A stretch of 64,000 bases of DNA from NCBI GenBank assembly GCA_031835245.2, contig JAVKOQ020000038.1, positions 186,001-250,000 on the forward strand, in the 5' to 3' direction. This document shows, in pieces, positions 3,032-55,409 of the stretch. The translations under genes and the position numbers were made by a program. The DNA is from Balamuthia mandrillaris. Lineage: Eukaryota. The notes beneath the pieces are model-generated. The model ran no database searches. It was not told the DNA's origin and saw nothing but the letters and a program-made list of their open reading frames with translations. Numbering within the stretch: the stretch's first letter is position 1; the number at the start of each line of letters is the position of its first letter.

Positions 3032-3068
<37 letters not shown>

Positions 3069-6000
3069 CTCTGCTTGTCCGCTCTCTACTTCTATTCTCT
3101 CTTCTCCCTCTTGTTCTTTCTGTTGCTCATTCATCTCTTGCTTCTTACGTTTAATTTCAATTACTGTTCACAATCGCAGCCATGTCTACCATACATCACT
3201 CCTGACCCAGAAGAGCATAACGAAGCACAAGGCAGCAGCTCTTCCGCTTCCTCCTCGTCCTCCTCAATCTGTGCGGGTACATGGAGCCTTTCCGCCAACA
3301 ACTCTTTGCTTTACACTCCCTATAGAGATTGGAAGAAAGCCACCGAGTTTACGGTCACTGTTCCTCCCGATATTTGTGGCTTGTATCACGCCCAGCTGCA
3401 ACCTGCCAAAACCACTGCCACCCCTGGTGGTCTCTGCAGCAAAAACCTTCAATGGAACTTCCATACCCCCACTCCCTTGTACACTCAGACCTTCCCCACG
3501 AACGGTTTGAGCAACGTGCTCGTCAACACTCCCATTTTGGTGATCTTTGACCAGAAGATACGCCCCAAGAAAGTGATAAAGCGAATGTCGGTCTGGTACG
3601 AGCAAAAGAAGCTGATGATGACCAACAAGAAGAACGTTGCATTGCAGCTGGTAAAGAGTTTGGAGGATCTGCCCTCCTCTGCTTTCTCATCGGAGCAGGA
3701 GGCCGATAGATTGAAGGACATGATTGAGAAGGCGCCCGAGAAACAGTGGGTCTTGGCAACGCCTGCTGAGCGCTTGCCCTTCGGTACTAGTTGCCATCTC
3801 CAACTTGGTCCTAAAGTACGTTCACATTTGTTAAAATTGTTTTTATGCTTTGCTGACAATAAAACTATGTTAGCTGCCATCTGCTGAAGGATCATATGCG
3901 GATCCCGACAAAATACAACATATAAACTTTTCTACTGTGTCTCGTTTCCAAGTCTCTTGTACGTACACTATGGTTATTTTTCATTTTTTTTTTGTAAAAC
4001 TTTTTTAACGTCTCTGAAAAGATGTGCAACCGGGAAACAAAGGGTACATGACCTCTCCTGCCGGACATGTTTCCGTGTTTTTCAACCATCCATTGGTTCG
4101 CTGGAAAGGAACCCATGATGACCTTGTATGTTCAGCTATTGTGTTTCACTCTGTTCGCCTTAAAAAATGATACTGATGACTTTTTATCAGGAATGGAGGT
4201 TTGAGATATCGCCTGAGCTAGAGAGTGAAGGTACTTGGAGTACACCTTCCTCCCATGAACTGAGATTTACTCCCAATTCGAATTGGGCCGGATCGACCCA
4301 ATATACTATCACCGTAATGCACTGCCTGCTTTATGTTGTTTTCCCCAGTGCTCTGCAACTGACTTTACCACTTTCTGCAATCTTCTTTTTGGTACTTCTT
4401 TCTTCGTTCTTTCTTCTTGTTAGGTACCAGCCGGTGTAAAATCTTACCTAGGAGACGAGTTGGAAGAGGAATACACGACCACCTTCACAACCTCCGTACT
4501 TGCAGTGACCCAATACTCTTACCTCCATCATGCCTCCTCCGCAAGCGTTGGAGAGATACGGGATCCGCCAGTATGGGTCTGTTTCAACCAAATCATCGAT
4601 GCAGAGCAGGTCTTGAAACAAATCTCCATGACCTATTCTGGCTCCATGTTCCGTTCCACCTCTGTTCCACTGAGGCTGATGGACTATGATGAGGTGATGG
4701 AGTGCGAGCAGGCGCAGCATCTCATCTCTGACCAGAACGAAGGCTATTGGTTGGCTTTTAAACCTGCCGAAAAGCTGCCTTTTGCCACTGATGTCACGGT
4801 TACCATTGGACCTGATGTACGCTCTTTGTTACTTCGCTTTTATTTTTCCTCCTTCAATTATTTCTTAGTGTTGCTCACTTTATATCTATCTTACAACAAT
4901 AGTTGCCATCAGCAGAAGGGCCCTTACTATCTTCTCACAAAACAACTTTTGGGTTCAAAACTATTCCCCCGTTCCTTTGTACCAGTAACGTTATCCCTCT
5001 TCTTTAGATTTTTGAAACGTTCAAGCGATCCATTCACAAGCAAAGTCAACTCATTCTTTCTTTATTTTTGTGAATAGATTCGTTGCCGCTTGGTTATGTT
5101 AGCAATGTAACTAGTACAAATGTCCGTCTTTACTTCAACCAACCTCTTGTCAATCCTTCTAACCAATCGCTGTCCATCGATGAAATGGTTCGTAATGATG
5201 TCTTTTCTGTGCTTCTAAGAAGGAGTAGCAAAGAAAGCAATCACAAACCCTAACAAACGTAATGAACTCAATCATAATTAGAATTGGCTCCCAACTCTGA
5301 GTCCTGAACCAAAACAAAAAGGAACATGGACCTTGGTCAGTGCTTACACTCTCGATTACACACCAAATACTTGGGATATGGCCACCACTTATACTGTCAC
5401 GGTTTGTTAATTTTTATTGGGAGAGAGAGAGAGAGAGGGAGGAAGGGAGAAGGCAGATGAGAGCAGAACCACAAATATGAACTAACCGATTTGCACCAAA
5501 AGGTTGATGCTGGAGTTCGTTCGTTCTATGGAGAACAATTGGACAAGTCATTTTCCTTTGAGTTCTTTACTCCTGCTGCAGAGATTGTCCGTGCGTTTCC
5601 CTGTGCTATCCCCACCTACAATTTCAACAAAGGTGCTTCTGTGGACACTCCCATGGCGCTTCTCTTCAATCAAGCTGTGGATCCCGATCAAGCCCTTGAA
5701 AAACTGAGGTACTCTCTCTTTCATCTCTTTGTTCCTCTCTCTCTCTCTCTGCTGCTCTCTATTGTTCTAAGCTCTCTTTTCTCTCATTTATAGCGTTCAT
5801 GTCAACGATGGCATGCTCTCTTTCTTGAAGAAGCCGTACGGAAGTCTAAGTTTGATCCAACCGAATGCGCTGAGCAACCATCCTGCCCTTGAAAAGTTCT
5901 ATAATGGCTTATCTGCTTCCGAACAGGCCGCCTGTGTAATGTTCAGCTGTAACAAGACGTTCCCACACAATTCAACCATTACCGTGAAGCTTGCAGCTGG

Positions 6001-9000
6001 CGTACGATACCTTCGTTCTAGTATTTCTTGCAATTCTCTTTTCTTACGTTTATTCAGCTTGCATCAAGGGAAGGATCACGAGTAGCGCCCAAAGAACAGA
6101 GCTCACAATTTAGCACTGTTGCTGCTTTCGGCGTCCAATGTATGTGTTCTAAGATCTCTCCTCAAAAACAACAACAAACTAACCTATTTCCTTGTTTTCT
6201 AGATGCTTCGCCTACTAAGGCGATTCAACATCGTCGAACGGTCGTCAAAGTCCAGTTTACTCAACCTTTGGTTCCTATTCATCAACGAGCTGACATCCAA
6301 CACCTATCTTGGCGTCCTATCATTCAACCTTTTCCATCCATGATAGAGCCACTGAGGTGCGTTTGGCGCACTTCTAAGTCCTTTCAGGACTTGAAGCAAG
6401 TCACGAAGAAGAATGGGACAGTGCTCGTATGGAAGGACGTTGAGGCGGAAGAATCGGTTCAAGCTCAGCTGGAACTTTCTCCTTCGGATGGCATTCCTTA
6501 CTTTGAAGTAAAAGTGAAATCATGCGCCAAGAATGGCTGCATTGCTGTTGGTATGTACTTTTCTTCTTCTGCTTCTTCTTCTTCTTCGTTCATCTTCGTT
6601 CTTCTTCTTCTTATTCTTATTCTTTGTCGCATTTCACATATTCTTTGTTTAGTTTTTCGAACCTTTCTTGACATTTCAATCAACAAACGAAAACACTTAT
6701 TGATAAACAGGTGTGGCATTGATAGATCTTCCTTTACACAAGATGTTACCGGGCTGGAAGTCTCATAGCTACGGTTATCACAGCGACGATGCACATATAT
6801 ATAATGACAACAAGCCAACGGAAAGTTCAGCGTTACCCAAATGGGGAGTTGGAGATGTTATCGGTTGCGGCATAGACGCTAGTAACGATGAGATTTACTG
6901 GTAGCTTTCTTTCTTCGTTGTCTTCGTCTTCTTCCTTTTTACTTATTATTGATATGATATAGGACATTAAATGGAGAGAAAATTGTGGCTCAAAAGTTGG
7001 GCAAGAAAGACAAGAAGCTTCTTCCAACTGGTTTGCATGTTTCATGACTTTTTTTTTCCAAATGATGCTAAATATTCCGTTTTTCTCTGTTAACAGTTGG
7101 TGCTGACAATGGAGCTAAACTATGGGTAAATCTTGGCTCTGCCCCGTTTGCCTATGACCCCAAAGCAAACAATTCAACACCATCTAAGAAAGGCAGCAAA
7201 AAGTCTTCTCTGTCCAAAGCGGAGAAGAAAGAAAAGAAGAACAAGAAGAAAGAGAAGAAGACCCCACGCAAAGATAAAGAGAAGGAGAAGGAGAAAGAGA
7301 AGGAGAAAGAGGAAGGTACCATTACTGAGTCAAAACAACCATCTCCAAGAGACAAAGAAAAAGACAAAGAGGACAAAGAGGAACAACCTGTATCTTCGCA
7401 ACAATCCTTATCTGCTCCTTCTTCCTCGACCACTGCTCCTCCTCCACCATCAATCACCGGAGTAGTTGCAACGCCCGTTCAACCGCCTCCAAAAGCACCT
7501 TCCAATCGTGGGGCATGGACCTTGGTCGATCACCACACCCTCCTCTTCTATCCCATGGAGCCATGGCAGAACTCAACCGAGTTCACCGTGACGGTGCCTG
7601 AAGGAGTATCCTCCTACTACCAAGACCAAAGGCTGGAAAAGCATTATAGCTTCAAGTTTACCACTCCAACCATCCGCATCTTGAAGCTACCGCTCAGCAA
7701 CACAAGACAACTGCTGGATGCTCCCATTTACGTTCGCTTCAATCAGCTCATCGATGCGCAGGAGATGATAAAGAACGTTCAGGTATCCATCAGCAAATGG
7801 AAGTTCTCCAGCTTTGCACCGGTGCGTTTGTTGAAGAAGAAAGAGATCAATCATCCTTCTGCCTTGAATCCTGCATTTGCTGGCTATTGGCTCTGCTTCA
7901 AGTGTACGGAACCGTTCCCTTATGATACTACTGTTACCGTCAAGATTGGTCCTAAGGTTTGTTGAAATAACCTCTTCTTTCTCTGATCTCTTTTCTTTGT
8001 GTTCTCACTCTAGCTTTCTCTTTAATTTTAAAATTTTCTCCCTAAATAGCTCAAGTCAATCGAGGGAACTCTGGAAACAACTCAAGAGCAAACGTTCAGC
8101 TTTACCACTATTGGTGACTTTGCAATTATAAGTGCGTCAAACAAAACCTTTCTTCTTTTGTGACGTTTCAAAGTGAACTACACCTCTAACGTTGTTATTT
8201 GGCACCTTCAAAGATGGTACTCCCAAAGGACAACAGTCCTACTACAAAGTCCCTGTCGTTTTGGAGTTTAACCAACCGCTTCTGCCACCTGGCGCTCCTT
8301 TGGATATTAACTCTTTGGTACCGTCTCTCCTTCCTTCTGTTTTTTCGGGCTAGGATCAACTTACTCTCTCTCTCTCGCTCTCTCTTTCGTAGTCATGGAG
8401 GCCAAAGATAGAACCAGAGCCATTGTCAGGAGGTTCCTGGTCTCTCCTCAACTCAAGAAAGCTGTGCTACCGCCCCGACGAGCACTGGGAGAAGTCCACT
8501 CAATACACGGTGACCGTCGATGCTGACATCATCTCCGGCTACAACGAGCCACTTAAGAAATCTTACACGCTAACGTTCAGCACGAAGACGATGCTCGTTC
8601 GCTTCGCCTATCCTCGCCATGGCAGAAGCTTGCTCGATGCAGGAATGTTCATTCTCTTTGACCAGATAGTGGATCCTGAAGCTGTGCTCGCCACTATCAA
8701 AATCTCGACCTCCTTCTTCAAGAGCTCCTATGCTCCCGTGCGCCTAATGACCAGCAAACAGGTGAAACGCAGCAACTTTGCTCATTTGGCAACGGAGGAA
8801 CTGGAGGGTCATTGGGTGGCGTTTGAAAGCACCAAGATGCTGCCGCCTAATTCCACTGTTACTGTAACTGTTGGGCCAAAGATCCCATCGGCAGAAGGAG
8901 ACGTGCCGTCAGAGTCCACTTATTCATGGCAATTCAAAACAGTGCCACGGTTCAAAGTGGATCGCTTCTTCCCAAAGAACAGCAGCACCAAGATCTATCC

Positions 9001-12000
9001 AAGGGCTCCATGGAGCATCCGCTTCAGCAATCCCTTGAACCAAACCACTTTTGATCCGAGAGCCATTACAGTGGAACCTACTCTGCCCGATTTGAATGTA
9101 TGTGTGACCTCCGGAAAGACCATTCAACTTTATAGCAGCATGCATGAAGGCGACACTGTCTATCGCGTAACTATTGTTAGCAGCGCGATCAAAGGTTTGT
9201 TCTTCTATATGTTTCTCTCGTCTTGGTCTTCTTCTAACTTGTTTTTTGCATTTCAGACGTTTATGGACAGCCATTAGGTATCGAACATGCTGAAGAGGTT
9301 GAAGACGAAGGAGATGAAGGACAAGGCAACTTTTTGATTGAGGACATTGTCTGGGAGGTGAAGGTCTGGGAACCACCAGTGCCACGTGCTCTTAAGCCCT
9401 TCCAAGACGGACTTATTGTCTACGATCCTGTCCTTTTGGCCGCCACACAACAACCACCAACATACCACATCAAAGTGTACAACTACAAAGAGTTGCGCGT
9501 CTGTTTGTATAAGTACGTTTTGTTGTTTTTCTCTCTAATGTGGTCTTTTGATACTTGTTCTAATGCTCTCTCTCAGAATGAATCCTCGTAAGCATTGGCA
9601 TAAATGGGGCACCGAGAAGAATTACAAGTCAGTAGGTGAGAACAAGTCTGATACTCACGATTACCTCGGGTATTTCCTTCCGTCTCTTTGTTGAACAATC
9701 TTTCTTATCCTTTAAGGCGAACACTTATTGTCTCTTGTCTTTCTTAGCTACGGCAAACTGGTGGCAGATGACATTGTTCCGGTGTCCAACTACCAGAAGG
9801 ACACCTATGTGGACTTCATCGTGGACCTCTCCCCTGCGCTTAAGGATTCCTCTCGTGGCGTGGGCCAAATCGCCATCGTCATAACTCCCACCAAGAAAGG
9901 GCACTATCCCAACTCGTGGAGCGATCGAGACATCGTCAAGGCATGGATCCAGCTCACCCACATCGGCCTAGATGCTTTCCAGGGCTTACAGAGCGTGCAT
10001 GCCTGGGCGACACATCTTGTCAAAGGAGGACCCCTCAAAGGAGCCAAGTTTTGGTGGCATGAACGAGAGAAGACCAAGTTTGGAGCTGGTCTTACCATTC
10101 TTGATGCTGATCAACAAATGTACGTTATCTTAAGTTGATGTTTTCTATATAATCCTCTGATACCGTTACAATGAACAAATCTTATTTATAGGAAAAAGTT
10201 GGCGGCTCTGAACCAACAAACCTCTCCACGTGGTGGCAGCAACAAACAAGGTTCACAGGCAAGAATAGCGCCAACCACCGCGTTGAGCCTTCGGCCGATG
10301 ACCCTTGAACGAGATGTGAGCGGGCCATTCCTGAGCAACAAGGAAGGTGTCGCCGTGTTGCCACACAACACCACCAAAGCAGCAACCCTCTTTGTAGAGA
10401 AGGGAAAGGATTGTGCGTTCATCACTGGCGTATCCACTTTCACTTCCCTGTCAGCTGATACCATGCTGCTCTGGCACGTCTTTGATGACAGAAGGTTCGT
10501 CTTGTGATTCTATCCCTCTCGCTCCTCCTCGTTGTTCTGTTGAAACAATCTGCTGAAATCTTTTTGGTTTTAGCATGTATCGTCCGAAAGAAGAAGTGCA
10601 CATCAAAGGCTACGTTCGCTTCTTGAAGGTTCTCTTTCCTCTCCTTTGACTCTTTTTTTAAAAAAATTAATGTTGTACCACATTTAGCGATTGTCAAACG
10701 AACATTTTGAGCGACTTGAGTTACCTTCTTTGCAGAATGTAAACTACAGAATGGTCGACCCTCGTTCCGTCGAAGTGGCTAAAGGCAGCTCCTGCCTTTC
10801 TGGCTTTGGCTCTTTTGACTTTGTGCTCAACCTTCCGGACTCGGTAATGCCTATGTCTTTTTCTTTCTTTTTCTTTTTCGTCTTGTTATTTCGCCGTATC
10901 ATACTTGTACTCTCCTTCTTAACTGAATGTATCCTATACTTTAGATAAACTTGGGAGATGTCTCGCTGCATCTAAGCTTGGAGGATCACGAGCAGACCCC
11001 CACCTATGCCCACGTTCATACCTTCCAAGTGCAAGAATTCCGGCGACCAGAGTTCGTGGCGGAGGCTTCCGTGGAGAGCAAAAACCCACACTTCCTCGAC
11101 CCCTCCAGCAAGGCTATCCTTAAAGGCAAAGCCAGCTATTATGCCGGTGGTGGCCTGCCAGACTCTGACGCCACTTGGCGCGTGGCCTCAACGGATGCCA
11201 CTTTTGCTCCCCCTGGTCTTATGGATTATGTCTTTAGCAGTCAGACAAAGTTGTTGATCAAGGAAGAGGACATCAAGCAGGTCACCTCTTCTTCTAGTGT
11301 TAGCGTCACCTCCTTTTCCTTGGTGGGTAACGATGCTGGCTCATCAAGTGACGGAGCATTGCAACTGGTCGTTCCGAAGAAACGAGTTTCTTTGGTACCA
11401 ACTCCATTCGTACACTCTTCTGCGCAACGAAGCTCCAGCGACTGCAAACGAACGGTGAAGGGCAAGACTCGCCCTTCTGGCGAACACAAGATCGAGATCC
11501 TTCTCAAGTCGGGAATACCCAATCCTCCTCGACCGCTGAGTCTGGCAGCCGTTTTGGAGGTGATGGATCTCAACCATCAGACCTTGAATGCTACCACGCA
11601 GCTGTTGCTTCACCCTTGCGTTTACTATGTGGGATTGCAGGCCCAAGAGTCTACCATTTTGATGGACAGGCCCTGCCGTATCCGCATTGTTGTCTCTAAC
11701 ATTGGTACGTTCTTTCTCTTCGTATCCTTTCTTCACCTTCTTTCTGTTGCTGACAAAACAAAAACGTTTTGAAGATGGTAAATTGGTGGCCGGAGTGCCA
11801 GTCTATTTGACCCTCACTCGTTGGGTACGAAAGCCCTATTACAGACAGAGCAGCAGCTCTCCTTCACCGCCGCCCCCACCAATACATCAAGCAATGGTTT
11901 ACCGTACACCGCATCTGCCGTCTTCATCTTCCTCAATGATGGACATCATACCATCACAAGTACCTAGCGCATGGGAGGACATAACGGTTGATAATAAGAC

Positions 12001-12507
12001 ACCAAACTACCAAAAACATGTGGTTATATCCGGCTCCAAACCAATCGAATATGAGTTGAACTTCAGCAGCAGCAATAGCAACGATTCGTTGGTGCTCTCT
12101 TGCGACATTCATGCTTTGGTGGAAGATGGTGAGGGGCGCAAAAATGCCGCAGAGCTTTCTTTGCCAGTTCAGTCTTCAGCGCCGTCATTGCCCCCTTCTC
12201 CAACCTCTTTATATCCTTCTGTCCCTCCGCCAGCGCAACAACAACAGGACAAGGAGTTCGAGGTGATTGCGGAGGAGACTCTTGTTATCACAAGCGACAA
12301 GACTTCCTATAGAATTGGAGAAACCGCAGAGTTGCTTATTCAGTGTCCCTTCGCACCTGCTGATGGTTCGTTTTTTTCAAAATTATATTTCTTTCTCTTC
12401 TCATAACCTCTCTAAACAACATCATTGTTATAGCTTTGGTGACTGCTAGGTGCAGAGGTATCGTCAAAACCTTTTTGTACAAACTTAAGTCAACTTCTGA
12501 AGGTCCT

Positions 12508-12541
<34 letters not shown>

Positions 12542-15500
12542 CTCGCCGTTAGTTTTAACTTTGGAAACTCTTCAGTTGTTAGAGTGCCCATATTGGAGGA
12601 GTACGCGCCATCCATCAACATTCAGGTAGATACGGTTGGTCTTGCCAAGCGCTCTAACTTAGACAACAAGGAAGAGGAGAATGCTCCGCCTCGCCCTGCT
12701 CTCGCCACTGCCACCATTGAGCTTATTGTGCCTCCTGTACGCTATTCTTCTATCCGTTTTCTTTTATATCTTCCTGTTCTTTTACCGATGGTACTTATTA
12801 TAAAAAACCTAGACAACACGAGAGTTGACTGTAACAGTAACTCCGCAACACACCAAAGTAATTCCTGGCGGAGAGACCGTCGTCGCCGTTCGAGTTACCG
12901 ATCACAAAGGGCAAGCCATCAAGCGAGCTGCTGAAGTGGCGATTGTTGTGGTGGATGAGGCTGTTTTAGCCCTGAGCAACCATTCCTTATCAAACCCGCT
13001 GCAAACCTTTTATCCCACTCGACCCATCGAAACCAAACGCCAACGCTATGCAAACAGAACGCATATCAGCGTAGAGGTACATTCTCTCTCTCTCTCTCTC
13101 TCTCCCTCCCTCCCTCTCTCCCTCCCTCCCTCCCTCTTCTTTTGTTTTTTAACTTATTTATTGTTGTCGTTCTGTTTATAATGGTTTATTTAACATTTGT
13201 TACTTAAACTTTCACATGTAGAAATGGGACAACAAACAATTGGATCCACCAACTCTTCACTTGGAGCAATTGACGGCAGATTGGTCCGATGATGAGGAAG
13301 TAGCTCTCTCCGACGATGAGATCGATGTTGCTCAGTTGATAGAGGCAATCAAGGACGAGGAGGAGACCTGGCCGGAGCCTCAACTGGAGTCAGAACCTGT
13401 GGATAACGTCAAAGTGCAATACAGCAGCGATGAAGAGATTGCCGATCAAGAAGAAGAGGAAGAAGACCAAGAATACTTTAATGAGTACGGTGCAGATGAA
13501 GAACAAGAATGCTTGGAGAAGCTTGCAGAATGTGCTTTTGATGATGGAATTTGTCTCGAAGAAAAGAAGTGCGCAGAAGGAAGTAGACAAAGAAGAGCAT
13601 CGTCCCCACGTTCCAGTGGCCGTGGTGGTGGTGGTCCTCATTTACAAAGGATGTTGCACTCTTCAGGAATACCTCCACCTCCACGGAGTTCATCATTAGC
13701 CTACGACATGGCTGGTGGTTGTCCGCCGCCACCCCCTGCAGGCGCACCATGTGCCTCAAATGCCTCACTGATGATGCCATCCTACAGTGCATCTCCTTCT
13801 TCTTCTTTTGCTAAAAGGGAATGCGAGAAAATGGATTCATTTGCTCCTATGGCGCAGATGGAATGCGCTAGCTTCGCAAAGAGTGCAGCGCCAAGAAAGG
13901 CGATGAAGAAGGGTGGCTTTGGCATTAGCTTGCCTGCTCCTTCCCTTCCCTCCTTTAGTAGAAGTTCTGCTGCCCCTGTCCGCCAGAGGAAAGAAATGAA
14001 GAAAAAGTACCTCCTTCTTTCCTTCGCCGTTTGTTTTGTTTCTTCTTCAGGTTGTCTTTGATGTTGACTAACTGGATTGGTTGTTTGAGCAGGTCCATCG
14101 CTAAAGACAAGTCATTTAGCAGAGCAAAAAAAATGGAGCGCAATGCAAGAGCAGAATCTGATGATGACTGTGAAGAAGCAGATGAAGAAGAAGAGTACGA
14201 GGGAGAAATGCTGGCAGATGCAGAAGAAGAAGTGTGTCCCATAATCGCCGTTCGCAGCAACTTCAATCCATTGGCCAACTTCACGGCAAGCGTTTTGGTG
14301 GACGACGAAGGCAAAGCTCAAATAGACGTAAAGATTCCCGACAGTCTTACTCGCTACAGGTTCATCTCTCTTGTTTTGTTCTCTCTTGTTCTTTCTGTTG
14401 CTTCACCTCTTCTTGTGTTGCTCACATTACTTTTTGAAACAGAATATGGGCAGTTGCAGTGAGCAGAGATGGAAAGAGCTATGGACTCGGCGAGAACCTC
14501 ATCATCGCTCAGCTTCCTTTGGTCGTTCGCTGCACTCCTCCACGCTTCCTCAACTTTGGAGACAGCTTCGAGCTGAGCATCATCATCCAAAACCAACTTG
14601 AACAAACTCTTGACATTGACATAGGCATCAGAGTCAGTCATCACGTTGAGATCATCACGTCGGAAGAAGAAGACGGAACAGAAACAGGCATTCGTGAGAC
14701 TGGTTTCAAGGGACACGTCATCGGCGAAGGAAGACGTCTTGTCACTGTACCAATGCGCACAAAGTCCGTTGGCATGGCTTGTTTCCAGGTTCTTGTTCTT
14801 CTTCTTTCTTCTTCCTCTCTTTTGTTGCCCTTCTTCAACTTCTAACACCCTACAACAAACCGTTTCCTCTCGTAGGTGAGCTGTTCTTCAGGCAAATACG
14901 GTGATGCAGCCAACGTACAAATCCCAATCTATCCACCGGCCACAGCTGAGTCCTTTGCTCAATACGGCAGCCTGCCAGGGGACGTGGAGGTCATCCAAAA
15001 ACAGATCACCAAGCCAGCGGGAGCTCTCCCTCAGTTTGGCGCTCTGGAGCTCTCCGCCAGCAGCACCATGATGCAAGGCCTCCTTGACGCTGTGTATTAC
15101 CTCTACAGCTACCCCAACGAGTGCTGCGAACAGATCTCGTCCAAGCTGCTGGGCTTGGTGGCTTTGCATGACGTGTTGGACTCTTTCCCTAGTGACAAGC
15201 TGCCGAAGAGAAAGGAGCTGAAGAGCTTGGTCTCTGCCGATCTGAAGAGGCTGAAGAAGAGGCAGAGCAAGAACGGAGGATTTGGAATGTGGACCGCTCA
15301 CTCCACAGTAGAGTATGTTGTTTTCTCACTTATTAAGTTTATAGCACTTTTCTCACCTTTTTCACTCCACAGTCCATTCGTAAGTTGTCATGTGGCACAT
15401 TGCCTTGGATTATGTAAGGCCAAAGGCTTCGGTTTGCCTTTCTTCATTGAGAGCAGAATCGTATCATACTTGAAGGACGTTCTCTTCAGCGACATTCGCA

Positions 15501-17499
15501 CCTACAGCTCCGACGCTCGTGCCCTTATCACCTCCTATGCTCTGGTTTCTATTCTTTCTTTCTCGCGCTTCCTCTCTCTTGTTCTAACATTCTTTGTCGT
15601 CTCCATTTCATGTATATAGTATGCTCGTTATAGACTAAGTCCAGATGCATCCATTAAACAAGAGGCTGAGCAATACTACGCCTCTCATGCACCTGACGAG
15701 CTGCCAATGGAGGCATTAGGCCTTTTGTTGAGCATCTTTGCTGACACCTCAACCACCGGCACCCTCATGTTCAAGAAGCAGCAGAAGAGAAGCGCTTGCG
15801 CTGATGAGGTGGTGAGATACTTGGCCAACCACATCAAAGTGGACAAGGACACTGGTTTGGCCCATGCTCCCTCTTACTATGATGAGCTCTCTCGTCACAG
15901 TCTTCTTCATAGCAACTACCGAGTTGGTACGTTTATTTTTGGGTTGCTTTGGTGGTTTTGTTGCTGATGTTCTTTGTTGGAACAAACAAGATGCAATGCT
16001 TTTGGAGGGATTAGTGATGGCTGATCCGGAACATGAACTGGTGGCTCCGTTGGCAAAGGGACTGCTGGCCATGCGAAGAAATGGAACATGGCTCAATACT
16101 CAAGAGAATGCTTGGGCTACCATTGCTCTCAACCGCTACTTTACTGGTACCGTGCTTCTCTTCTTTGCTGCTCTTTTCTTCCTTCCAAGCTTCTCTCTTT
16201 GTGTTATAAATGTTCACCCAAACCACAAAAACAATATCAGTTTGTGAGAAGGATAAACCAGACTTTGCTGTTCGTTTCTGGTTGGCAGAGCAATACTGTG
16301 GAGAGGCTCTCTTCAAGGGCCGAAATGCCGACACCAAGTTCATCCGAGTGCCAATGCTGGAATTCTCCAAATGCGCTCAAAAGGCAAACTCCGTCCGAGC
16401 GGCGGGTGACCTTACCTTTGGGCAAGTCGATCTTCATCGCTCCGCTGCTCTGAGCAAAGAAGGTTCCAAAGTAGGCTTGGCGTTGGCTATCGATCTGGCT
16501 GAGGCGAAGAAGACAAAGAAGGGAAGAAAAGAGGAAGAAGAAGAGGAAGGGAAGAAGAAGGGTTCTCTTCTTCAAGTGCCTGGCAGCGAACAATCTTCAG
16601 CATCTCCAAGAAAAGAGAGCAAGTCGCCAAGAAAGGATTCTTCCAAGTCTCCAAGAAAAGACTCCACCAAGTCTCCAAGGAAGGATTCCTCTTCTTCATC
16701 TTCTTCTTCCTCTGGCAAGTCCCCAAGAAAGGAAGAAAAGACAAGCAAGAAAGACAAAGGCAAGTCACCAAGAAAAGGAACCAAGATCGAAGAAAGCAAA
16801 TCCAGCTCACCTCGCGACTCTGCCAAGAACAAGAAGAAGGGAGAAGAGAAGTATCCCGCAGAGGTCGCCGATTTGTTGTTGCAAAAGGAAGGCAAAGGCC
16901 GTCTCTACTACAGACTAGGCATGAGTTACGCTCCCGCTGATCTCGTCATCCCTGCAAAGAGCTTCGGCTTCACCGTGCAACGCCGCTTCTCCGCTGTTAT
17001 CACCGACGACGAGAAAGACGCAGAGAGGAAGAAGCAGCAAGAAGAGAAAGTGAAGCAAGATAAGGATGGCGTGTGGCACGTGGTCAAAGGTTCTTTGGTG
17101 CGAGTAACGTTGACGGTGACTGCGAACTTCCCGAGATACAACATTGCGCTTGTGGATAAGTTGGCAGCTGGGTTAGAGGCTGAGAATCCGGCTATCAACA
17201 AGGTGACCAAAGACAAGTCCGTGAAGGAAGAAGAAGAGAAGGGCAAAGACAAGGAGGAGGAGAAGGACAAGACAACGGTTTGGTGGCAGCATCAAAACCT
17301 GAGAGATGAGAGAGTGGAATGCTATGCCTCTGAGCTGGCCAAAGGAGTGGAGTACAAGTACGAGTACATTGCCCGAGCGACCAGCGAGGGACGCTTCGTG
17401 GTGCCGCCTTGTAGATGCGAGGAGATGTACAATCCTGACTTGTATGGTCACACCGCATCCACCATCCTTGTTGTGGAGTGTGAGAAGAAAGAAGAATAA
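964..17499 (+). CDS. Giant multi-exon bacterial-type alpha-2-macroglobulin family protein: acidic/coiled N-terminus, about 6 tandem Big_5 (Ig-like) repeat units, inserted SPRY domain, MG domains, thioester domain, C-terminal domain
   Basis: Motifs DDRRMYRPKEEVHIKG (spliced), FQVQEFRRPEF, VVVDEAVLAL, VRSNFNPLANF, IPDSLTRYR, PPRFLNFGD, YSYPNECCEQ (CxEQ at 15122-15133), TWLNTQENAWA, HQNLRDERV, EEMYNPDLYGHT. SPRY motifs LPGWKSHSYGYHSDD and WGVGDVIGCG at ~6730-6870. All exons on +; start ATG 964 is inferred. Confidence 0.85.
16603..16815 (+). repeat. Coding tandem KSPRK(D/E)S repeats inside the A2M last exon
   Basis: ASPRKESKSPRKDSSKSPRKDSTKSPRKDSS...KSPRKEE...KSPRKG in ORF 16210..17499. Confidence 0.8.
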
Positions 17500-17581
17500 A
17501 ACGCGGCAAGCAAAAGTGGAACTAGCACCATGCGAGGATTGTATTTACATATCAAATAAAAACCAAAAATATTTCTCTCTC

Positions 17582-18121
<540 letters not shown>

Positions 18122-18726
18122 TTATTTGTGTTGTTGCAAGTCTTTGTTGCTTGTGTTGTTGCGTTGAAAGCAACATTTTCGTAGCGAGAGGCATTTATAT
18201 CAACAACAATCCTTGGATGCTCAAACGACGTAGAATGGGCGACGTCGTTTCCGTCTCGCAGAAGCACCAACCGCTGAAGTGACGACGTCGCCCTTTTTTT
18301 TTTCTGGCTTCCATGAAACTTTCTTCGAGTTTGTCGACACTAACATGTTGCGGACATACCTGAATGACGTCACCTATTTCCATTTCTATTAATGGGTTAA
18401 GTAATCGATCGATCATACTGCAGCCAAACAGGACAGGTTGAGCAGTGCAGGGGGTAGCAACCTCCTTAACCTGTTGCTATGCGACGGATTACCTTAAACC
18501 AAATTGCGGTGCCTTACCTTAAACCCAAATAAGGAATCTAATTTCACGTTCTCCTACAAAACACAAGAAGAAATAACGCATAGTGTTTTCATTTTTTATT
18601 TTTTTTTTTGTTGCAGACAGAAAAATAGCAGAAGGACAACTCGCTTACGCCACCAGTCTCTCGTGGACGTGTACAACCACACACCAATTTGTTAGTTTGC
18701 TTTCAACTTTTGCAGAGGTAGACGAG

Positions 18727-21407: not shown

Positions 21408-21565
21408 AGCGTTTGAGGGAGGGGTTTTCGCCTCTGTGATTTGTATGCGTATTCTTTTGGGAGAGCGTGGAGCAGTTTGTTTTTTTTTCTCTCTCTCTTG
21501 GAGACCATTTATTTTATTTATTTATTTATTTTTTTTTAAAGAGAAATTAGAAGCCACATAACGTT

Positions 21566-23793
<2,228 letters not shown>

Positions 23794-50484: not shown

Positions 50485-51588
50485 TCACTCGCTCAACTTG
50501 TGGACAGGGGTTGGAAGCTCAGAGACGCTCACCCAAGTTATGCAGTAGGAATCGCCGCCCCAACAAAGGGTTGGGTAGAGATCCTCCTGCCCTTCTTCCA
50601 AAACGCTTTTTCGTACTAGCCTATCGTCACAGTAGAGGTCGGTGATCTGCTTCCCGTTCTTGAACCAAGCTATTGCTCCTTCGCGAAGGTCAACGTACAC
50701 ACCTACCCTATCTTTGAGGCCGAAGCGTATGTCATTCAGGTGTTTACCTGTTTCATTGTTGAGGTAGAGTGTACCTACGAAGAAAATAAGAAGGTTAGTA
50801 GGAAGAATACGGAACAAACGACGGAACAGGGATTCAAACCATGGCAATGCAAACCCCAACAGGGCATCTGGGGAATGGTCTTATTGCCAATGGGAGATTG
50901 GAGAGTGGTGATGCGTTGCGGGGCGATGCCCACAAAGATGCTGCTCCCGCCAAACTTCTCAAAAAGCAGCTCAAAGTACTGTTTGCAGTTGCGACGGAGA
51001 GGGATGGTAGCGGTGGAGTTGACCCACTGGCTGGCGGACGACACGGGACCTCTTCTCGCACTAAGGTTGTGGTTCGAGACGATAATGTTTTGAGAGCTGT
51101 CCCATTGCCATCGCAGTTGCGCTGTTTGGAGGCAGTTATTTTTTTAAGAAACAGAAAGAAAAAACAAAAAGGGTAGCAAGAATGGACATACGTGTGACGT
51201 AGCCCAAGACGGCCACTACAAGTTCCGGAGGCAATTTGGAGAAAGGGCAGTCGGGCTCTCGCAAATGGCCAAAGAGGATCAAAGCCTTGGCGGCGTTGGC
51301 ATCGTGTGGGAGCCACGGTTTGTCCACATCTGACGAAGCGGTACCCCCAGGTGCTGTTGCAGTACCGGCAAACTGTTGTACCTTGCGGATCACTTTGGTG
51401 GCAGCAGAGCTAACCACCGGCGACGGAGGTGCACTTGCGTTCTCGCAAACTGTCATGGTCGTCGCTGTCGGCGTTGTCGTGGTGGTGGTCGTTGAGGTTG
51501 GCGTCGTGCTTGCTACCGTTTTGGTTGCAAGCGGTGGTGCGCTTTGTTTCTTTGTTCTGGCTTTGGGAGCGGAAGAAGAAACGCCCAT
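50485..51588 (-). CDS. SPRY/B30.2-domain protein with an MGxxxS myristoylation-like start and an F-box-like motif, 3 exons
   Basis: MGVSSS; FSKLPPELVVAVLGYV; QYFELLF...IFVGIA, FGLKDRVGVYVDLREGAIAWFKNGK, LYPTL. Confidence 0.75.
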
Positions 51589-51971
51589 TTTAGGACATCA
51601 AAAATAAAAAAAAAGCGTCTGGTTCCCTCCTCCTCCGCCTCCTCCTCCTCCTCCTCTTCCTCCGCTATTCGGCTGCGCGCAAATGAAAGTTGACAAGCTT
51701 GACAGCGGACGGGCCGTCAAACATACATTTACAACTGGTCTTTCGCTTCTCCCCTTTCTTCTTCTTCTTCTTCTAGATCTCTGCGAAGGCCCCCTCCCTC
51801 TCTCTCGTTTGGTGTCCGTCTTTTATTTCTTCCTTGCCGTTATTGTTGTCGGGTGGGCAACTTTTGTCGGCAAGATCCTGTCGTGACGTCCTTAGAACAA
51901 GTAAAGAATGGACAGCAAAAAAGTTAGAGATGATGGGCAGGTAAGTGAAATTTCGTTTTTCTGTTTTATTT

Positions 51972-52098
51972 CCCGAATTACAACACGACCCCTGTGGGTT
52001 CCTTCGGAGTTTTCACGGTCCGTGACACCAAATGCTTGGTTGTCGGGGCCGTGTGGAAACTATTTAAGCGACCGCTCCGTTCTTTCCAGTCGTATCCC
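51972..52098 (-). ncRNA. Candidate omegaRNA (Fanzor guide scaffold); 5' end and strand not certain
   Basis: Multi-branch fold: 10-bp stem 51983-51992/52045-52054 (its single mismatch is G.U on the minus strand) encloses hairpins 52013-52025 and 52027-52040. A 5-bp CCGAA/TTCGG pseudoknot links 52003-52007 to the terminus 51973-51977. Confidence 0.5.
52061..52067 (+). promoter_or_regulatory. TATA-like box (TATTTAA) upstream of tnpA
   Basis: The only AT-rich heptamer in a GC-rich stretch, about 45 nt before ATG 52110. Confidence 0.4.
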
Positions 52099-52109
52099 CC
52101 AGTCCCTAC

Positions 52110-53024
52110 ATGTCACAAACCACCACCATTGACGCTACCACTACCATTACCCCACGACTCAGAGAACCCACCGAAGATCTGCACTACGTCGCCCCCACGA
52201 AGCTGATCAAACGCTATGGCGTCTCCCTCAGCGGGCTGGCCAAGTGGCACACGGAGGGCAAGGTGGCGGCCCTCCGCACCCCAAGCGGGCACCGCCGCTA
52301 CGCGGCAGAGCACGTTAGAGAGCTTCTTGGCCTCCCCGCCGCGGTCCCAGAACCCGAGGCCACCGAAAAGATCAAGGCCATCTACTGTCGAGTCTCCAGT
52401 CACGGACAACGAGAGCACCTCAAGCATCAAGTTGAGCGTATGCGAGAAGCCTACCCGAGGCACAAGGTCTACAGCGACATCGGCTCGGGCATCAACTGGA
52501 AGCGCAAGGACTTTGTCGCCCTTCTGGAGCGAGTCCTTGCTGGACATGTCGAGGAGGTTGTGGTTGCCCACCGAGACCGCCTCTGTCGGATCGCCTATGA
52601 GCTCGTCGAGCACATCTTCCGTAGGTGCGGAACCCGTCTCCTGGTGCACCGTCCGGACGACGAGGACGACGACGAGGCCGAACCAAGCAACGTCCTCGCC
52701 GAGGACCTCCTCTCCCTCGTTACCGTCTTTGTCTGTAGACACCACGGTCAAAGACGATATACAGCTGGCCAAGGAGGCAGCTCGAGCACGTCAAAGAGGC
52801 CGAGGCAAACCGAAAAGGGCGACAGAGGAGGATCCAAACGACGACGAAGAGGAGGAGGAAGATCCGACGCTGTTCAAGACGAGAAAGATACGTCTGAGGC
52901 CCACCAAGAAACAAGCCCGGATCCTCAACCGCTGGTTCGGAGGGGCGAGGAAAGTCTGGAACACCACTCTTCGAGACTGCAAGACAACGGAGAAAGAAGA
53001 AGAGGAGGAAAAGAAGAGGAGTAG
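52110..53024 (+). CDS. tnpA: IS607 TnpA: MerR-like HTH plus serine resolvase, with a basic C-terminal extension
   Basis: YGVSLSGLAKW...RTPSGHRRY (HTH); AIYCRVSS (Ser96, 52395-52397); SDIGSGINWKRK; VVVAHRDRLCR; LAEDLLSLVTVF...HGQRRY. Confidence 0.93.
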   Translation: MSQTTTIDATTTITPRLREPTEDLHYVAPTKLIKRYGVSLSGLAKWHTEGKVAALRTPSGHRRYAAEHVRELLGLPAAVPEPEATEKIKAIYCRVSSHGQREHLKHQVERMREAYPRHKVYSDIGSGINWKRKDFVALLERVLAGHVEEVVVAHRDRLCRIAYELVEHIFRRCGTRLLVHRPDDEDDDEAEPSNVLAEDLLSLVTVFVCRHHGQRRYTAGQGGSSSTSKRPRQTEKGDRGGSKRRRRGGGRSDAVQDEKDTSEAHQETSPDPQPLVRRGEESLEHHSSRLQDNGERRRGGKEEE

Positions 53025-54168
53025 AGTGGCGTGGAAGCTGAGTCGGATGCAGGGCGTCTGCGTGGTTAAACCTAGAATCATATTCGATTACTTGGAAGAC
53101 GTCCCCTACTCCATCAAGCACGAGGCGGTAAAGCAGCTCCACGGCAATTACCTCACCTGCTGGACGCTCAAGAAGCAGGGTCATATCCGACGCTTCTCCA
53201 TCAAGTACAAGCGCAAAAAGGACCACCGCACCGAGTCCATCAAGATCCTCGGACATTACGTCCACTGGTGGAAGGGCTTCGTCTACCCTGACGAGCTCCA
53301 TGTGAACAAGCGTTGGAAAGAAGCCAATGAAACCCGCAAGAGGACACCCAGACGACGGCGGTTGCCGAATCCCCACGTTAAGCACATAGACCCCATGTTC
53401 GACCCTGTAGCGTACGCTTTAGAAGGCCTGGAGTTGGACGACAAGGGCCGACTGAGACGAACCTGCACACTGCACAAGGACAAGCGTCAACATTTTTGGC
53501 TCTGCGTGCCGATCCCAATCCAACATCATGAACGGGCTCCTGATAACCAAGGGAGCATCGTGGCCTTGGATCCAGGGGTTCGCACCTTTCTGTGTGGATA
53601 TAGTCCTACCGAGAGAACGGTGAGGGAGTTTGGACGCAACGACTTTGGTCGCATCTGGCGCCTCGGAAAGCATGCCGACGCCCTGCAGTCCAAAATCGAC
53701 CGCTCCCCACCGAGCCGCCGCAAGAGAAAACTTCGCGCTCTGCTCAAACTGAGAAAGAGGGTCACCAACCTGGTCGATGACTTTCACCGCAAGACGGCCC
53801 TCTTCCTGTGCCGCCGCTACGACCACATCATCATCCCTCCCTTTGGTGTGAAGGGCATTACGGCCACCCGAGGGAGGCGACGGAGGAAGATCGGCAAAAA
53901 GACCGCCAGGATGCTCTATTCCTGGGGACATTACCGATTCCGCCAGTGGTTGCTGCACAAGGCGAGGGAATGGGGCACCAAGGTCTACATTCGTTCGGAG
54001 GCCTGGACCAGCAAGACTTGCACCTGGTGCCTCCATGTGACTCACGAACAGAAGCAACACAACCGGCGTGAGCGAATCTTCGAGTGCGGACGCAGGGACT
54101 GTGGGATACGACTGGATCGAGATATAAATGGAGCTCGCAACATACTCCTTAGGAGCCTCTGTTGTTAA
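52216..54168 (+). CDS. tnpB: Fanzor2 / IS607 TnpB RNA-guided endonuclease
   Basis: KIRLRPTKKQARILNRWFGGARKVWN (OrfB HTH); RuvC-I ALDPGVRTF (D452); IIIPPF (P541 at the canonical Glu position); SEAWTSKTC (E595); zinc finger CTWC...CGRRDC; RuvC-III DRDINGARNI (D636). Confidence 0.93.
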   Translation: MASPSAGWPSGTRRARWRPSAPQAGTAATRQSTLESFLASPPRSQNPRPPKRSRPSTVESPVTDNESTSSIKLSVCEKPTRGTRSTATSARASTGSARTLSPFWSESLLDMSRRLWLPTETASVGSPMSSSSTSSVGAEPVSWCTVRTTRTTTRPNQATSSPRTSSPSLPSLSVDTTVKDDIQLAKEAARARQRGRGKPKRATEEDPNDDEEEEEDPTLFKTRKIRLRPTKKQARILNRWFGGARKVWNTTLRDCKTTEKEEEEEKKRSRVAWKLSRMQGVCVVKPRIIFDYLEDVPYSIKHEAVKQLHGNYLTCWTLKKQGHIRRFSIKYKRKKDHRTESIKILGHYVHWWKGFVYPDELHVNKRWKEANETRKRTPRRRRLPNPHVKHIDPMFDPVAYALEGLELDDKGRLRRTCTLHKDKRQHFWLCVPIPIQHHERAPDNQGSIVALDPGVRTFLCGYSPTERTVREFGRNDFGRIWRLGKHADALQSKIDRSPPSRRKRKLRALLKLRKRVTNLVDDFHRKTALFLCRRYDHIIIPPFGVKGITATRGRRRRKIGKKTARMLYSWGHYRFRQWLLHKAREWGTKVYIRSEAWTSKTCTWCLHVTHEQKQHNRRERIFECGRRDCGIRLDRDINGARNILLRSLCC

Positions 54169-54213
54169 TCTCTTACTAATCCCTCCATTTATATCTCGAT
54201 CCAGTCGTATCCC
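54103..54213. repeat. Perfect 31-bp inverted repeat (49-nt spacer) at the element end
   Basis: GGGATACGACTGGATCGAGATATAAATGGAG (54103-54133) versus its exact reverse complement at 54183-54213. Confidence 0.95.
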
Positions 54214-54284
54214 TTTTCCTTAAATTTTTTCTAGGAAAAAGGCCGGCTTTGGGGGAAACTTTGGAGTCCGCAAAAAGCAAGTTG

Positions 54285-55409
54285 ATGGACGCAGGCTCCA
54301 GCAGCGCAGCCGCGCACAGTGGCCCGTCGAATCACGTCCTCGTTAAAGTGGTTGGAGGACCCAAGAATGGCCGCGTGCGAGTGACCATTCTCGCCTGCCC
54401 GGAATGCGGTGCCAGCTTTGCCTCCAAATCCCTCCTTCTGGCGCACATGAAGCAACGTGGGCATGGGCTGCGCTGTGCTACCTGTGGTTGGGCTTTCCTC
54501 TCTCGTGGTGCGTGCAAGCAACACCAGAGAAAAAAGGGCCACGCCTCCTCCACTGCTGCCAACAGCAACGCAGCAGTGGCTCATAAGCCAGAAGAGGACA
54601 AAGAAGCAGCAGCCACGCGCCAATCCCTCTTGCAAAGGCAACAAGCGGCTTTATTATCGGACTTTGCGCAGAAGCTTTGGGGCTTGATGCAAGGACTTAG
54701 CCAAGAGAATATGAAAGCTGATAAAACGATGCTTGCACAGCTACGGGAACAGCAAACGAAGGCGCAGGAGAACCTCAAATCCTTGTGCGGTGCCATGGCC
54801 AGCGCTTCTAGCGAAGGCCAAAAAGCAGCACAGCGGCTGTGTGAAGAGCAACTGGCAGCTATTCGACAAGAACGGGAGGATTGGGAAAAAGAAAAACAAC
54901 ACATTAGCAACGTCAATGGTCTACAACCGAAAGTGGTAAAGGTTAATGTTGGAGGTGAAGTTCCTCTCTTCTCTTTCTTACTGTCTACTCTCCTTTCATC
55001 CCTCTTCTTTTTTCTTCTCTCGGCTTGTTTTGCTCTGTATTCATTTGTTGCATGTGCGTTTTCTCTTTCTTCCTTGTGTCTTAACTTTGTATCTCTTTCT
55101 TTCCATTTCTTCTTCTATTCACCAGGACACGTGTTCACGACCTCAAGCACAACAATGTGCATGTGCACAGGATCAATGCTGGAGGCCATGTTCTCGGGAA
55201 GGCATGCCCTAACGCCAATGGAGGACGGCTCCGTTTTTATCGACCGCGATCCCACTCACTTCAGAACAATCTTGAACTATTTGCGTGGTAACAAGCCGGT
55301 ACTTCCAGAAAACCAGACTGGCCTTGAAGAACTCCTTCAGGAATGTGAATTCTACGGGCTTGCTCCGCTTGCTTCGCTCGTTCGTAAGGCGCTGGAGAGT
55401 GTATCGTGA
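54285..55409 (+). CDS. Two C2H2 zinc fingers, coiled coil and KCTD-type BTB/POZ protein; a possible upstream exon lies before the transposon
   Basis: CPECGASF...HMKQRGH, CATCGWAF...HQRKKGH, VKVNVGG|HVFTTS, FIDRDPTHFRTILNYLR; in-frame intron ~54956-55125. Confidence 0.85.
   Translation: MDAGSSSAAAHSGPSNHVLVKVVGGPKNGRVRVTILACPECGASFASKSLLLAHMKQRGHGLRCATCGWAFLSRGACKQHQRKKGHASSTAANSNAAVAHKPEEDKEAAATRQSLLQRQQAALLSDFAQKLWGLMQGLSQENMKADKTMLAQLREQQTKAQENLKSLCGAMASASSEGQKAAQRLCEEQLAAIRQEREDWEKEKQHISNVNGLQPKVVKVNVGGEVPLFSFLLSTLLSSLFFFLLSACFALYSFVACAFSLSSLCLNFVSLSFHFFFYSPGHVFTTSSTTMCMCTGSMLEAMFSGRHALTPMEDGSVFIDRDPTHFRTILNYLRGNKPVLPENQTGLEELLQECEFYGLAPLASLVRKALESVS

What the first reader, a model, noticed from the sequence alone, without database searches (positions are those of the whole stretch)
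51972..54213. Apparently intact IS607 TnpA + Fanzor2 RNA-guided transposon in an intron-rich eukaryotic genome
Seen: two uninterrupted, intronless ORFs amid genes full of introns. TnpA keeps its HTH and YCRVSS nucleophile. The nuclease has D452, Pro at the canonical RuvC-II Glu (P541), a relocated Glu before the zinc finger (E595) and D636. Established: this rearranged RuvC is the Fanzor/pro-Fanzor signature, and Fanzor2 derives from IS607 TnpB. Inference: a recently active, autonomous eukaryotic programmable nuclease system. Both proteins carry NLS-like basic runs (SKRRRR in TnpA; RKRTPRRRR and RGRRRRK in Fanzor).
Basis: partly seen in the sequence, partly recalled or inferred. Interest (0 to 1): 0.9.

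Follow-up and report, generated by a model that had tools for sequence, protein, structure and literature searches.

The report
Amoeba Fanzor transposon with splice-site end
A multi-copy jumping gene of an amoeba encodes a bacterial-type transposase and a predicted RNA-guided DNA cutter and begins with a perfect intron start signal that likely helps hide it inside host genes, but this copy lacks the tail its sister copies carry and so likely cannot jump or make its own guide RNA.

Summary
Real IS607-type TnpA + Fanzor2 element in an amoeba (identical proteins are labelled Balamuthia mandrillaris), not contamination. Both ORFs and all named residues check out; D452/E595/D636 match the ApmFz2 triad. 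It is multi-copy, with three related families and mini-elements, and groups with giant-virus loci.

"Intact" fails. After 54164 this copy lacks the tail found in sister copies (the likely right end and ωRNA 3′ half). It carries a perfect 31-nt inverted copy of its own coding end instead.

The true left end is 51940/41, not 51972: CAG|GTAAGT, a perfect 5′ splice donor built on the IS607 GG core. Eleven contigs in 4 of 4 runs start there with other flanks; bacterial relatives lack this donor. One sister copy sits exactly between two codons of a Rictor gene.

A transposon spliced out by the spliceosome is plausible but unproven: the family's right terminus was not seen as DNA, and no splicing of this copy was seen.

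Fanzor is encoded in the +1 frame over tnpA; that frame is stop-free over the TnpA catalytic domain in 82 of 88 related loci.

The parts
51938..51941 (+). Target/junction CAGG; GG at 51940-51941 is the inferred IS607 core, CAG is shared by all insertion sites seen
   Evidence: Matches with other left flanks begin at 51937/51938 in 11 contigs of 4 of 4 runs and 3 reads of X19; Rictor model has Gln directly before the element-derived peptide
51941..51974 (+). Left end, 34 nt, starting with the donor consensus GTAAGT; shared with mini-elements and other families
   Evidence: Only CAGGTAAGT in 64 kb, both strands, 0.12 expected; loose ends behind 51971-51974 and joints 51974->54095 and 51963->54100
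52061..52068 (+). TATA-like motif, candidate internal promoter (motif only)
   Evidence: Sequence; no start-site evidence
52085..52107 (+). 23-nt antisense copy of 54094-54116, 144 nt inside the left end; one mismatch here, perfect in the family majority
   Evidence: 52099 C>A in most contigs; longest such exact match in 68 relatives is 11 nt versus 14 here
52110..53024 (+). IS607 TnpA: MerR-type HTH, serine recombinase domain (S96, RDRL), low-complexity basic tail
52216..54168 (+). Fanzor2 nuclease ORF (650 aa from first ATG), +1 frame over tnpA; triad D452, E595, D636
52525..52644 (+). Dual-coded stretch: Fanzor W104-W143 (homologous by profile to the ApmFz2 RuvC-R segment) lies on TnpA residues 139-178
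54094..54164 (+). Inferred 5′ part of the ωRNA scaffold, inside the ORF end; retained by mini-elements
   Evidence: Joints to 54095 and 54100, loose ends before 54094; bacterial relatives end 115-139 nt after the RD codon in 14 of 17 loci tested
54165..54213 (+). Copy-specific replacement of the normal tail: 18 nt with a branch-point-like TACTAAT (54174-54180), then a 31-nt inverted copy (54183-54213) of 54103-54133
   Evidence: sister tail differs; arm joined to host sequence in contigs of X10 and X2 (30 letters on the left side)
54214..54234 (+). Pyrimidine tract ending in TAG|G; likely host sequence, not element
   Evidence: An X13 contig matches 54214-54356 and runs on unlike the window; kept unspliced in the spliced X10 contig
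54285..55409 (+). Downstream host gene, C2H2 zinc fingers plus BTB/POZ, one intron 54955-55125

Best explanation
This is a 3′-damaged copy of a multi-copy amoebal IS607-type transposon that encodes a serine transposase and, in an overlapping +1 frame, a predicted RNA-guided Fanzor2 nuclease, and whose left end is a perfect 5′ splice donor that likely lets the host splice inserted copies out of its mRNAs. Mechanism for the family. (1) TnpA would excise and insert the element by crossover at a GG core inside CAGG. The core is inferred from IS607 biology; the CAG flank is shown. (2) One mRNA from an internal promoter would give TnpA from a weak first AUG and Fanzor from the strong second AUG (inferred, leaky scanning). 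(3) The 3′ end plus host flank would be processed to an ωRNA, and Fanzor would cut the empty site next to a CAGG-like TAM, restoring the element by repair from the sister chromatid (inferred from bacterial IS607). (4) In sense insertions the left end offers CAG|GTAAGT (shown). The acceptor would come from the element's right end or from a host intron (not resolved). For this copy: both proteins are intact and could act in trans on sister copies and mini-elements, but the tail after 54164 is gone, and the 31-bp hairpin would sequester the remaining scaffold, so cis transposition and ωRNA formation are likely lost.
For: Family identity. Triad equivalence to ApmFz2 D324/E467/D501 read from the alignment and the passage. 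Multi-copy: family-1 cluster of 4 sequences at 5 accessions, family 2 P0004 and family 3 P0064. Left end. The 9-mer occurs once in 64 kb against 0.12 expected. No left end printed for multi-copy bacterial or viral relatives begins GG+TAAGT. Rictor: element-bearing model P0039 matches element-free P0041 at 145 of 145 aa before and 80 of 81 aa after, joined at Q843|Y844. Lost tail: 5 contigs in 4 runs (X10, X2, X6, X12) leave the window behind 54164; gene models P0003, P0040, P0004, the P0039 N-terminus and P0221 read into a shared tail absent from the window. AUG contexts. Related elements are transcribed in X19 and X20.
Against: No joint removing this copy (51940 to 54214 or 54235) was listed in any of the 8 runs laid (tables cut, upstream exon barely covered). 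The spliced X10 contig keeps 54184-54234. The family's right terminus was never seen as DNA; the translations of P0039 and P0221 fit an AG acceptor or a bacterial-like CGG end equally. Bacterial relatives mostly end in ATCGG, which is no acceptor. The Rictor copy has 12 aa changes and an element-free twin exists, so that allele may simply be dead; fused gene models are found only in sense orientation, so orientation is no evidence. The published Acanthamoeba ACa-1 sequence does not start with a donor. P0038, identical to the window proteins and ending the same way, stands for 2 accessions, so the odd tail may be at two loci or on two haplotypes.
Confidence: 0.7

Rival explanations
1. Ordinary eukaryotic IS607-Fanzor2 whose left end resembles a donor by chance or because those bases serve TnpA binding; no splicing role.
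For: No splice joint seen; right-end acceptor unproven; IS607 ends are unrelated between elements and carry protein-binding motifs; ACa-1 lacks a donor start.
Against: All 7 bases around the GG core fit the donor consensus, a 9-mer found nowhere else in 64 kb; CA before GG is fixed here but variable in bacterial relatives; insertion exactly at a codon border in Rictor.
Confidence: 0.35
2. One reading: this copy is fully intact and autonomous, and 54165-54213 or 54165-54234 is a working alternative right end and ωRNA.
For: Both ORFs are open with all catalytic residues; P0038 with the same ending has 2 accessions; the replacement has branch-point-like and acceptor-like motifs.
Against: Families 1 and 2 and the mini-elements share another tail. 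The replacement is a copy of the ORF end with no GG or AG at 54213. 54214 onward appears to be host. Contigs of X2 and X10 run from 54184 into this one host gene without branching. CpG-loss pattern at 5 of 8 positions against 15% of bases in CpG.
Confidence: 0.12
3. This copy is being domesticated: the hairpin either yields small RNAs that silence the family (the 5′ UTR holds a 23-nt complement) or stops Fanzor from cutting a read-through transcript that now feeds the BTB gene.
For: 31-bp perfect stem (a weak miRNA-precursor-like Rfam hit, 29 bits against a 184 cut-off). The spliced BTB contig starts in the element-derived arm while upstream host DNA is hardly covered.
Against: Contigs cannot show starts or levels. 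The majority expressed family-1 sequence is not the window type. X21 expresses the BTB gene with 0 of 20 laid reads on the element. No small-RNA data.
Confidence: 0.15
4. Bacterial or viral contamination, or a chimeric assembly join.
For: GC 57% against 47% in the rest; intronless; the 54164/54165 junction and 54175-54183 are not covered by listed contigs of X2 or X10, so a local assembly fault in the loop is not excluded.
Against: An X6 contig carries 51784-51959 (flank plus left end) without a difference; right arm joined to host in X2 and X10. Copies sit inside host gene models. None of the 27 bacterial-genome tips falls in the 72-tip group holding these proteins, though that node is weak, 0.36.
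Confidence: 0.03

Closest known systems
Eukaryotic IS607-Fanzor2 elements (ACa-1 and ACa-2 of Acanthamoeba castellanii; ISvMimi/ApmFz2)
   Same: Serine-recombinase TnpA plus DPG/relocated-Glu nuclease, no long terminal repeats; best sequence and fold match in PDB is ApmFz2; amoebal host.
   Different: Left end is a perfect splice donor (ACa-1 does not start so, ACa-2 ends were not defined). The ωRNA is inferred to start inside the ORF, as in bacterial relatives, not after it. This copy lacks the normal tail. About 22% identity to ApmFz2 in the structural alignment.
IS607 IStrons (CboIStron; PMC10690162)
   Same: IS607 TnpA + TnpB, GG core, element borders coinciding with splice sites so that the insertion is removed from mRNA.
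   Different: No group I intron found here; splicing would rely on the host spliceosome and is not demonstrated.
Introners (transposons that create spliceosomal introns; PMC9860276)
   Same: Element carries one splice site and may take the other from the target or host.
   Different: Described Introner families are short (median 30-654 nt) and derived from non-autonomous elements; this one is 2.3 kb and encodes a transposase and a homing-type nuclease. Intron status is untested.
Bacterial pro-Fanzor IS607 elements (PMC10711439)
   Same: DPG and relocated Glu, GG core, same +1 overlap of tnpB on tnpA.
   Different: They start GG plus varied bases and mostly end ATCGG; about 30-43% identity in best segments; outside the amoeba/giant-virus group in the tree.

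Membership tests
IS607 transposon | TnpA with N-terminal HTH and serine recombinase domain | tested here: met
   NF033518 150.1 bits against cut-off 110; Pfam Resolvase; PDB IS607 TnpA hits
IS607 transposon | GG core at the junctions, no target duplication, no long terminal inverted repeats | tested here: inconclusive
   GG at the left junction, fixed across 11 contigs; right junction lost in this copy and not seen as DNA in sisters; an AG or CAG core fits too
IS607 transposon | Mobile: several copies with different flanks, empty alleles | tested here: met
   Different left flanks in 4 of 4 runs; element-free Rictor twin; empty allele in X13 only inferred from a shared contig depth of 9.5
IS607 transposon | Both ends present in this copy | tested here: not met
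   Sister tail absent after 54164 and nowhere else in the window
Fanzor2 | DPG in RuvC-I, Glu six residues before the zinc finger, no canonical Glu, RuvC-III Asp | tested here: met
   D452-P453-G454, P541, E595, D636 invariant in 28 of 28 aligned sequences; definition
Fanzor2 | Eukaryotic or eukaryote-virus host and placement with Fanzor2 | tested here: met
   NCBI labels; clade of amoeba proteins (support 1.0) inside a 17-tip group (0.88) with 4 giant-virus MAG loci and other virus loci (FastTree, 144 of 214 sequences after de-duplication, midpoint root, no named Fanzor2 reference in the tree)
Fanzor2 | N-terminal RuvC-R/thumb extension | tested here: inconclusive
   Profile A1 aligns ApmFz2 N82-S83-W84 to the conserved SW motif; region is low-confidence in the model
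Fanzor2 | ωRNA at the right end | tested here: not met
   For this copy only the inferred 5′ part remains; in sisters it is inferred from mini-elements, not sequenced
Fanzor2 | RNA-guided, TAM-dependent cleavage | not testable with these tools
   Needs an RNP assay
IStron | Group I intron at the left end | tested here: not met
   Rfam scan of 51500-54700 gave one sub-threshold miRNA-type hit only; only 169 nt precede tnpA
Introner (spliceosomal-intron transposon) | Donor at the 5′ border | tested here: met
   CAG|GTAAGT at the mapped border
Introner (spliceosomal-intron transposon) | Acceptor at the 3′ border | tested here: inconclusive
   Known only through translations in gene models P0039 and P0221
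Introner (spliceosomal-intron transposon) | Precise removal from host mRNA | tested here: inconclusive

The most novel reading that the evidence does not exclude
A eukaryotic IStron: an autonomous IS607 transposon that inserts at CAG|G, is removed seamlessly from host mRNA by the spliceosome using its own two ends, and is kept in place by its Fanzor2 cutting empty sites. Its mini-derivatives would be Introners carrying guide RNAs. The 23-nt internal inverted repeat would pair in the RNA to loop out the 2-kb interior and bring the splice sites together.
Probability: 0.3. Interest if true: 0.88.

Novelty: new variant of a known kind. Interest (0 to 1): 0.62.

Why it matters
It adds three Fanzor2 families from an amoeba not found in the Fanzor papers searched, with a predicted CAGG-like TAM, as candidate compact nucleases. 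If the splice-donor end is functional, it links two separate findings, bacterial IStrons and eukaryotic Introners, and names an autonomous mobiliser for intron gain; this is directly testable with existing RNA-seq. The conserved +1 overlap suggests that the Fanzor2-specific N-terminal RuvC-R segment arose by overprinting on tnpA. It also explains why gene callers fuse or truncate these ORFs. Practically, anyone cloning this locus as an intact system would take the wrong RNA.

Tried and rejected
A viral scan with the single protein found no relative. Two metagenome scans found nothing: left-end pattern 0 matches, amoeba-clade alignment 0 confirmed of 132 stretches. No RNA holder was listed on record; X10 proved spliced, and X2 only looks RNA-like by depth. 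Phage collection: 21 records, only distant hits. The 1.9-Mb virus record behind L067 could not be searched further; its locus had no tnpA hit.

Rejected: the 14-nt repeat at 52085 and 54200 as a target-site duplication (both are antisense copies of the ORF end). My first idea that 54214-54234 is the element's own acceptor (it appears in an X13 contig with other upstream sequence). A spliced TnpA-Fanzor fusion as in the NCBI models (four models use three different junctions; X10 contigs run unspliced through 52599-53235). The start of the X10 contig at 52100 as a transcription start (it follows the variant at 52099). The CAGGTAGGT near the start of ACa-2 as a second case (it lies in frame at the end of a kinase-like host sequence and that element's ends were not defined). 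A pseudoknot-based placement of the right terminus (no consistent partner).

Earlier scan notes: none. Literature blanks: Fanzor + Balamuthia 0; Fanzor + introner 0; IS607 + TnpB + overlapping reading frame 0; IS607 + overprint 0; IS607 + spliceosomal intron + TnpB gave only the IStron paper; Fanzor + spliceosom gave 11 papers, none on this by title or abstract start. Balamuthia is absent from the supplements searched (one scanned file not searched). Repbase and subscription journals were not searched.
Full report
Observation. The window holds a 304-aa ORF at 52110-53024 and a 650-aa ORF at 52216-54168. The first is an IS607 transposase: NF033518 at 150 bits against a cut-off of 110, with PDB hits to ISC1904, ISC1926 and IS1535 TnpA. 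The second is a TnpB-family nuclease. Counting along the alignment, D452, E595 and D636 fall on D324, E467 and D501 of ApmFz2, its published triad (PMC11832414, passages). DPG plus the relocated Glu is the published Fanzor/pro-Fanzor fingerprint (PMC10711439, passages). The model is modest (mean pLDDT 62); its best fold match is ApmFz2.

Host and copy number. Proteins identical or nearly identical to the window's are labelled Balamuthia mandrillaris by NCBI: four sequences at five accessions, differing from the window nuclease at 0, 3, 3 and 6 of 466 aa. The identical model P0038 may include this very locus and is not independent. Two further families exist, P0004 (85%) and P0064 (69%). In a FastTree tree of 144 sequences (214 before de-duplication at 80%; midpoint root) these group with one unnamed metagenome protein at support 1.0. 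They lie inside a 17-tip group (0.88) that includes four giant-virus MAG loci and other virus loci; the 27 bacterial-genome tips lie outside the weakly supported 72-tip group. The surrounding genes are ordinary eukaryotic ones (69 of 133 open frames scanned). Contamination is unlikely: an X6 contig carries flank plus left end without a difference.

True left end. Contigs from other insertion sites begin to match at 51937/51938 in all four runs laid: 2 in X2, 5 in X6, 1 in X13, 3 in X12 (76 further loose-end rows not shown). Three X19 reads do the same. Gene model P0039 translates the window from 51941 directly after a host Gln. So the border is CAG|GTAAGT at 51940/41. This is the full donor consensus, complementary to the U1 snRNA 5′ end (recalled knowledge), and the only such 9-mer on either strand of the window, with 0.12 expected. 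It contains the GG core typical of IS607 (PMC6188088 and PMC10690162, passages). Multi-copy bacterial and viral relatives with mappable ends mostly start with GG followed by varied bases, have variable bases before GG, and mostly end ATCGG; none printed starts GG+TAAGT. Spliced out at this donor and at an AG|G acceptor, an insertion at CAGG would leave the host message unchanged (inference).

Rictor copy. P0039 is a Rictor-like model with a whole element inside. P0041 is its element-free twin, matching at 145 of 145 residues before and 80 of 81 after, with the element between Q843 and Y844. Whether a host intron already lay there is unknown. The copy has 12 substitutions, so this allele may be dead. 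The N-terminus of P0039 and the C-terminus of P0221 translate part of the family's tail. They allow an AG acceptor or a CGG end and do not decide between them.

This copy is not intact. Five contigs in four runs leave the window behind 54164, and models P0003, P0040 and P0004 read through into that other tail. The window has instead 18 nt followed by a perfect inverted copy (54183-54213) of 54103-54133, folding at z = -8.2. Contigs of X10 and X2 join this arm to the host gene, with 30 letters on the left side, one short of the tool's bridging rule; no listed contig of X2 or X10 covers the loop at 54175-54183. An X13 contig matches 54214-54356 and then runs on unlike the window; a contig of the same depth (9.5) covers the left flank. 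If these are one 854-nt contig, X13 has an allele without the 2.3-kb element (inference; no joint was listed). In bacterial relatives the right end lies 115-139 nt after the RD codon in 14 of 17 loci tested; here shared sequence stops at +46. Mini-elements join the 34-nt left end to about 54095-54100, which marks the likely ωRNA start, like the ghost loci described for other Fanzors (PMC10432273, passages). At 5 of 8 positions tested, picked from cut tables, the window shows a CpG-loss pattern against the majority, while 15% of element bases lie in CpG; methylation-driven decay is an inference.

Expression. X19 and X20 had 93 and 90 reads laid, many on the element at 90-99% identity, so related families are transcribed in those samples; X21 had 20 reads, none on the element. 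X10 contigs match family 1 and are spliced at the BTB gene intron, but keep 54184-54234. No joint removing the element was listed in 8 of 8 runs laid. This counts against splicing of this copy and says little about intact sisters.

Overlapping frames. The nuclease frame is open from 52207, across most of tnpA. In related loci with a same-strand tnpA the nuclease is always in the +1 frame (41 of 41 viral, 47 of 47 bacterial). That frame is stop-free over the TnpA catalytic domain in 39 of 41 and 43 of 47; the +2 frame is stop-free in 0 of 41 and 2 of 47, and the +1 frame of an equal stretch of the RuvC region in 0 of 41 and 3 of 47. Loci with short tnpA hits or duplicate tnpA starts were dropped; the rest are related and were ranked with a query holding this region, so counts are not independent. 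The conserved W104, W116 and SW143 sit on TnpA residues 139-178, and the profile aligns the SW motif to ApmFz2 N82-S83-W84, part of the RuvC-R segment that binds the ωRNA pseudoknot. I infer that this segment arose by overprinting. Searches found no paper stating it (0 hits for overlap). The first AUG has a weak context, the second a strong one, with no AUG between them, which fits leaky scanning (inference).

The 23-nt internal inverted repeat (52085-52107 / 54094-54116) is perfect in the family majority. The longest exact equivalent in 68 relatives is 11 nt. It may be the subterminal inverted repeat known from IS607 ends, an RNA lock on the ωRNA start, or a way to bring splice sites together; none is tested.

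Comparison. IS607-Fanzor2 elements in amoebae and their viruses are known (PMC3627910, passages and supplements 1, 8, 9; PMC10530073, passages; review PMC13565253, passages). IStrons hide by group I self-splicing; none is present here. Introners hide by spliceosomal splicing but are short and non-autonomous in origin (PMC9860276, passages). I found no report of an IS607 or Fanzor element with a spliceosomal donor end, nor of these Balamuthia families; Repbase and closed journals were not searched.

Verdict. A real, recently spread IS607-Fanzor2 family (about 97%). This copy has intact proteins but a lost right end (about 85%). The left end was likely selected as a splice donor (about 60%); seamless intron behaviour of the family is about 30%. 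New variant of a known kind, interest 0.62.

Noticed in passing
related loci L001-L160 and window 52216-53024: The tnpB/Fanzor frame overlaps tnpA in +1 in 88 of 88 loci counted and is stop-free over the TnpA catalytic domain in 82 of 88; candidate overprinted origin of the Fanzor2 RuvC-R segment.
   Followed up: yes
read contigs laid on window 51941-54164: Mini-elements joining the 34-nt left end to the last 70 nt of the ORF or straight to the tail; several other tail variants leave the window behind 54143-54158.
   Followed up: partly
proteins P0039 and P0041: A Rictor-like gene with two element pieces about 150 codons apart, plus an element-free twin; another Rictor paralogue P0043 exists.
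   Followed up: partly
proteins P0064 and P0040: Consecutive accessions on contigs of the same length (16,590): a family-3 element that stops mid-nuclease followed by a family-1 element, possibly a nested insertion; the 720-aa host part of P0064 has no Pfam match.
   Followed up: no
window 51300-54400, runs X6 and X13: X6 appears to hold two alleles of the BTB gene 5′ region, one like the window and one like X13.
   Followed up: no
window 2378-18181: A very long multi-exon gene or genes with bacterial Ig-like (Big_5) repeats and a bacterial alpha-2-macroglobulin MG10 domain, unusual in a eukaryote.
   Followed up: no
window 21551-23461: GMC oxidoreductase gene split over several exons.
   Followed up: no
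L067 845-3241: Fanzor-like ORF without tnpA in a 1.9-Mb virus record, sister to the amoeba clade at support 0.83.
   Followed up: partly
L110, L113, L117, L118, L121: Bacterial copies whose shared sequence ends early or inside tnpB, with ends unlike the usual ATCGG.
   Followed up: no
published ACa-2 sequence: Its tnpA appears interrupted by two short GT..AG stretches, read by eye, suggesting intron gain inside an amoebal IS607 transposase.
   Followed up: no
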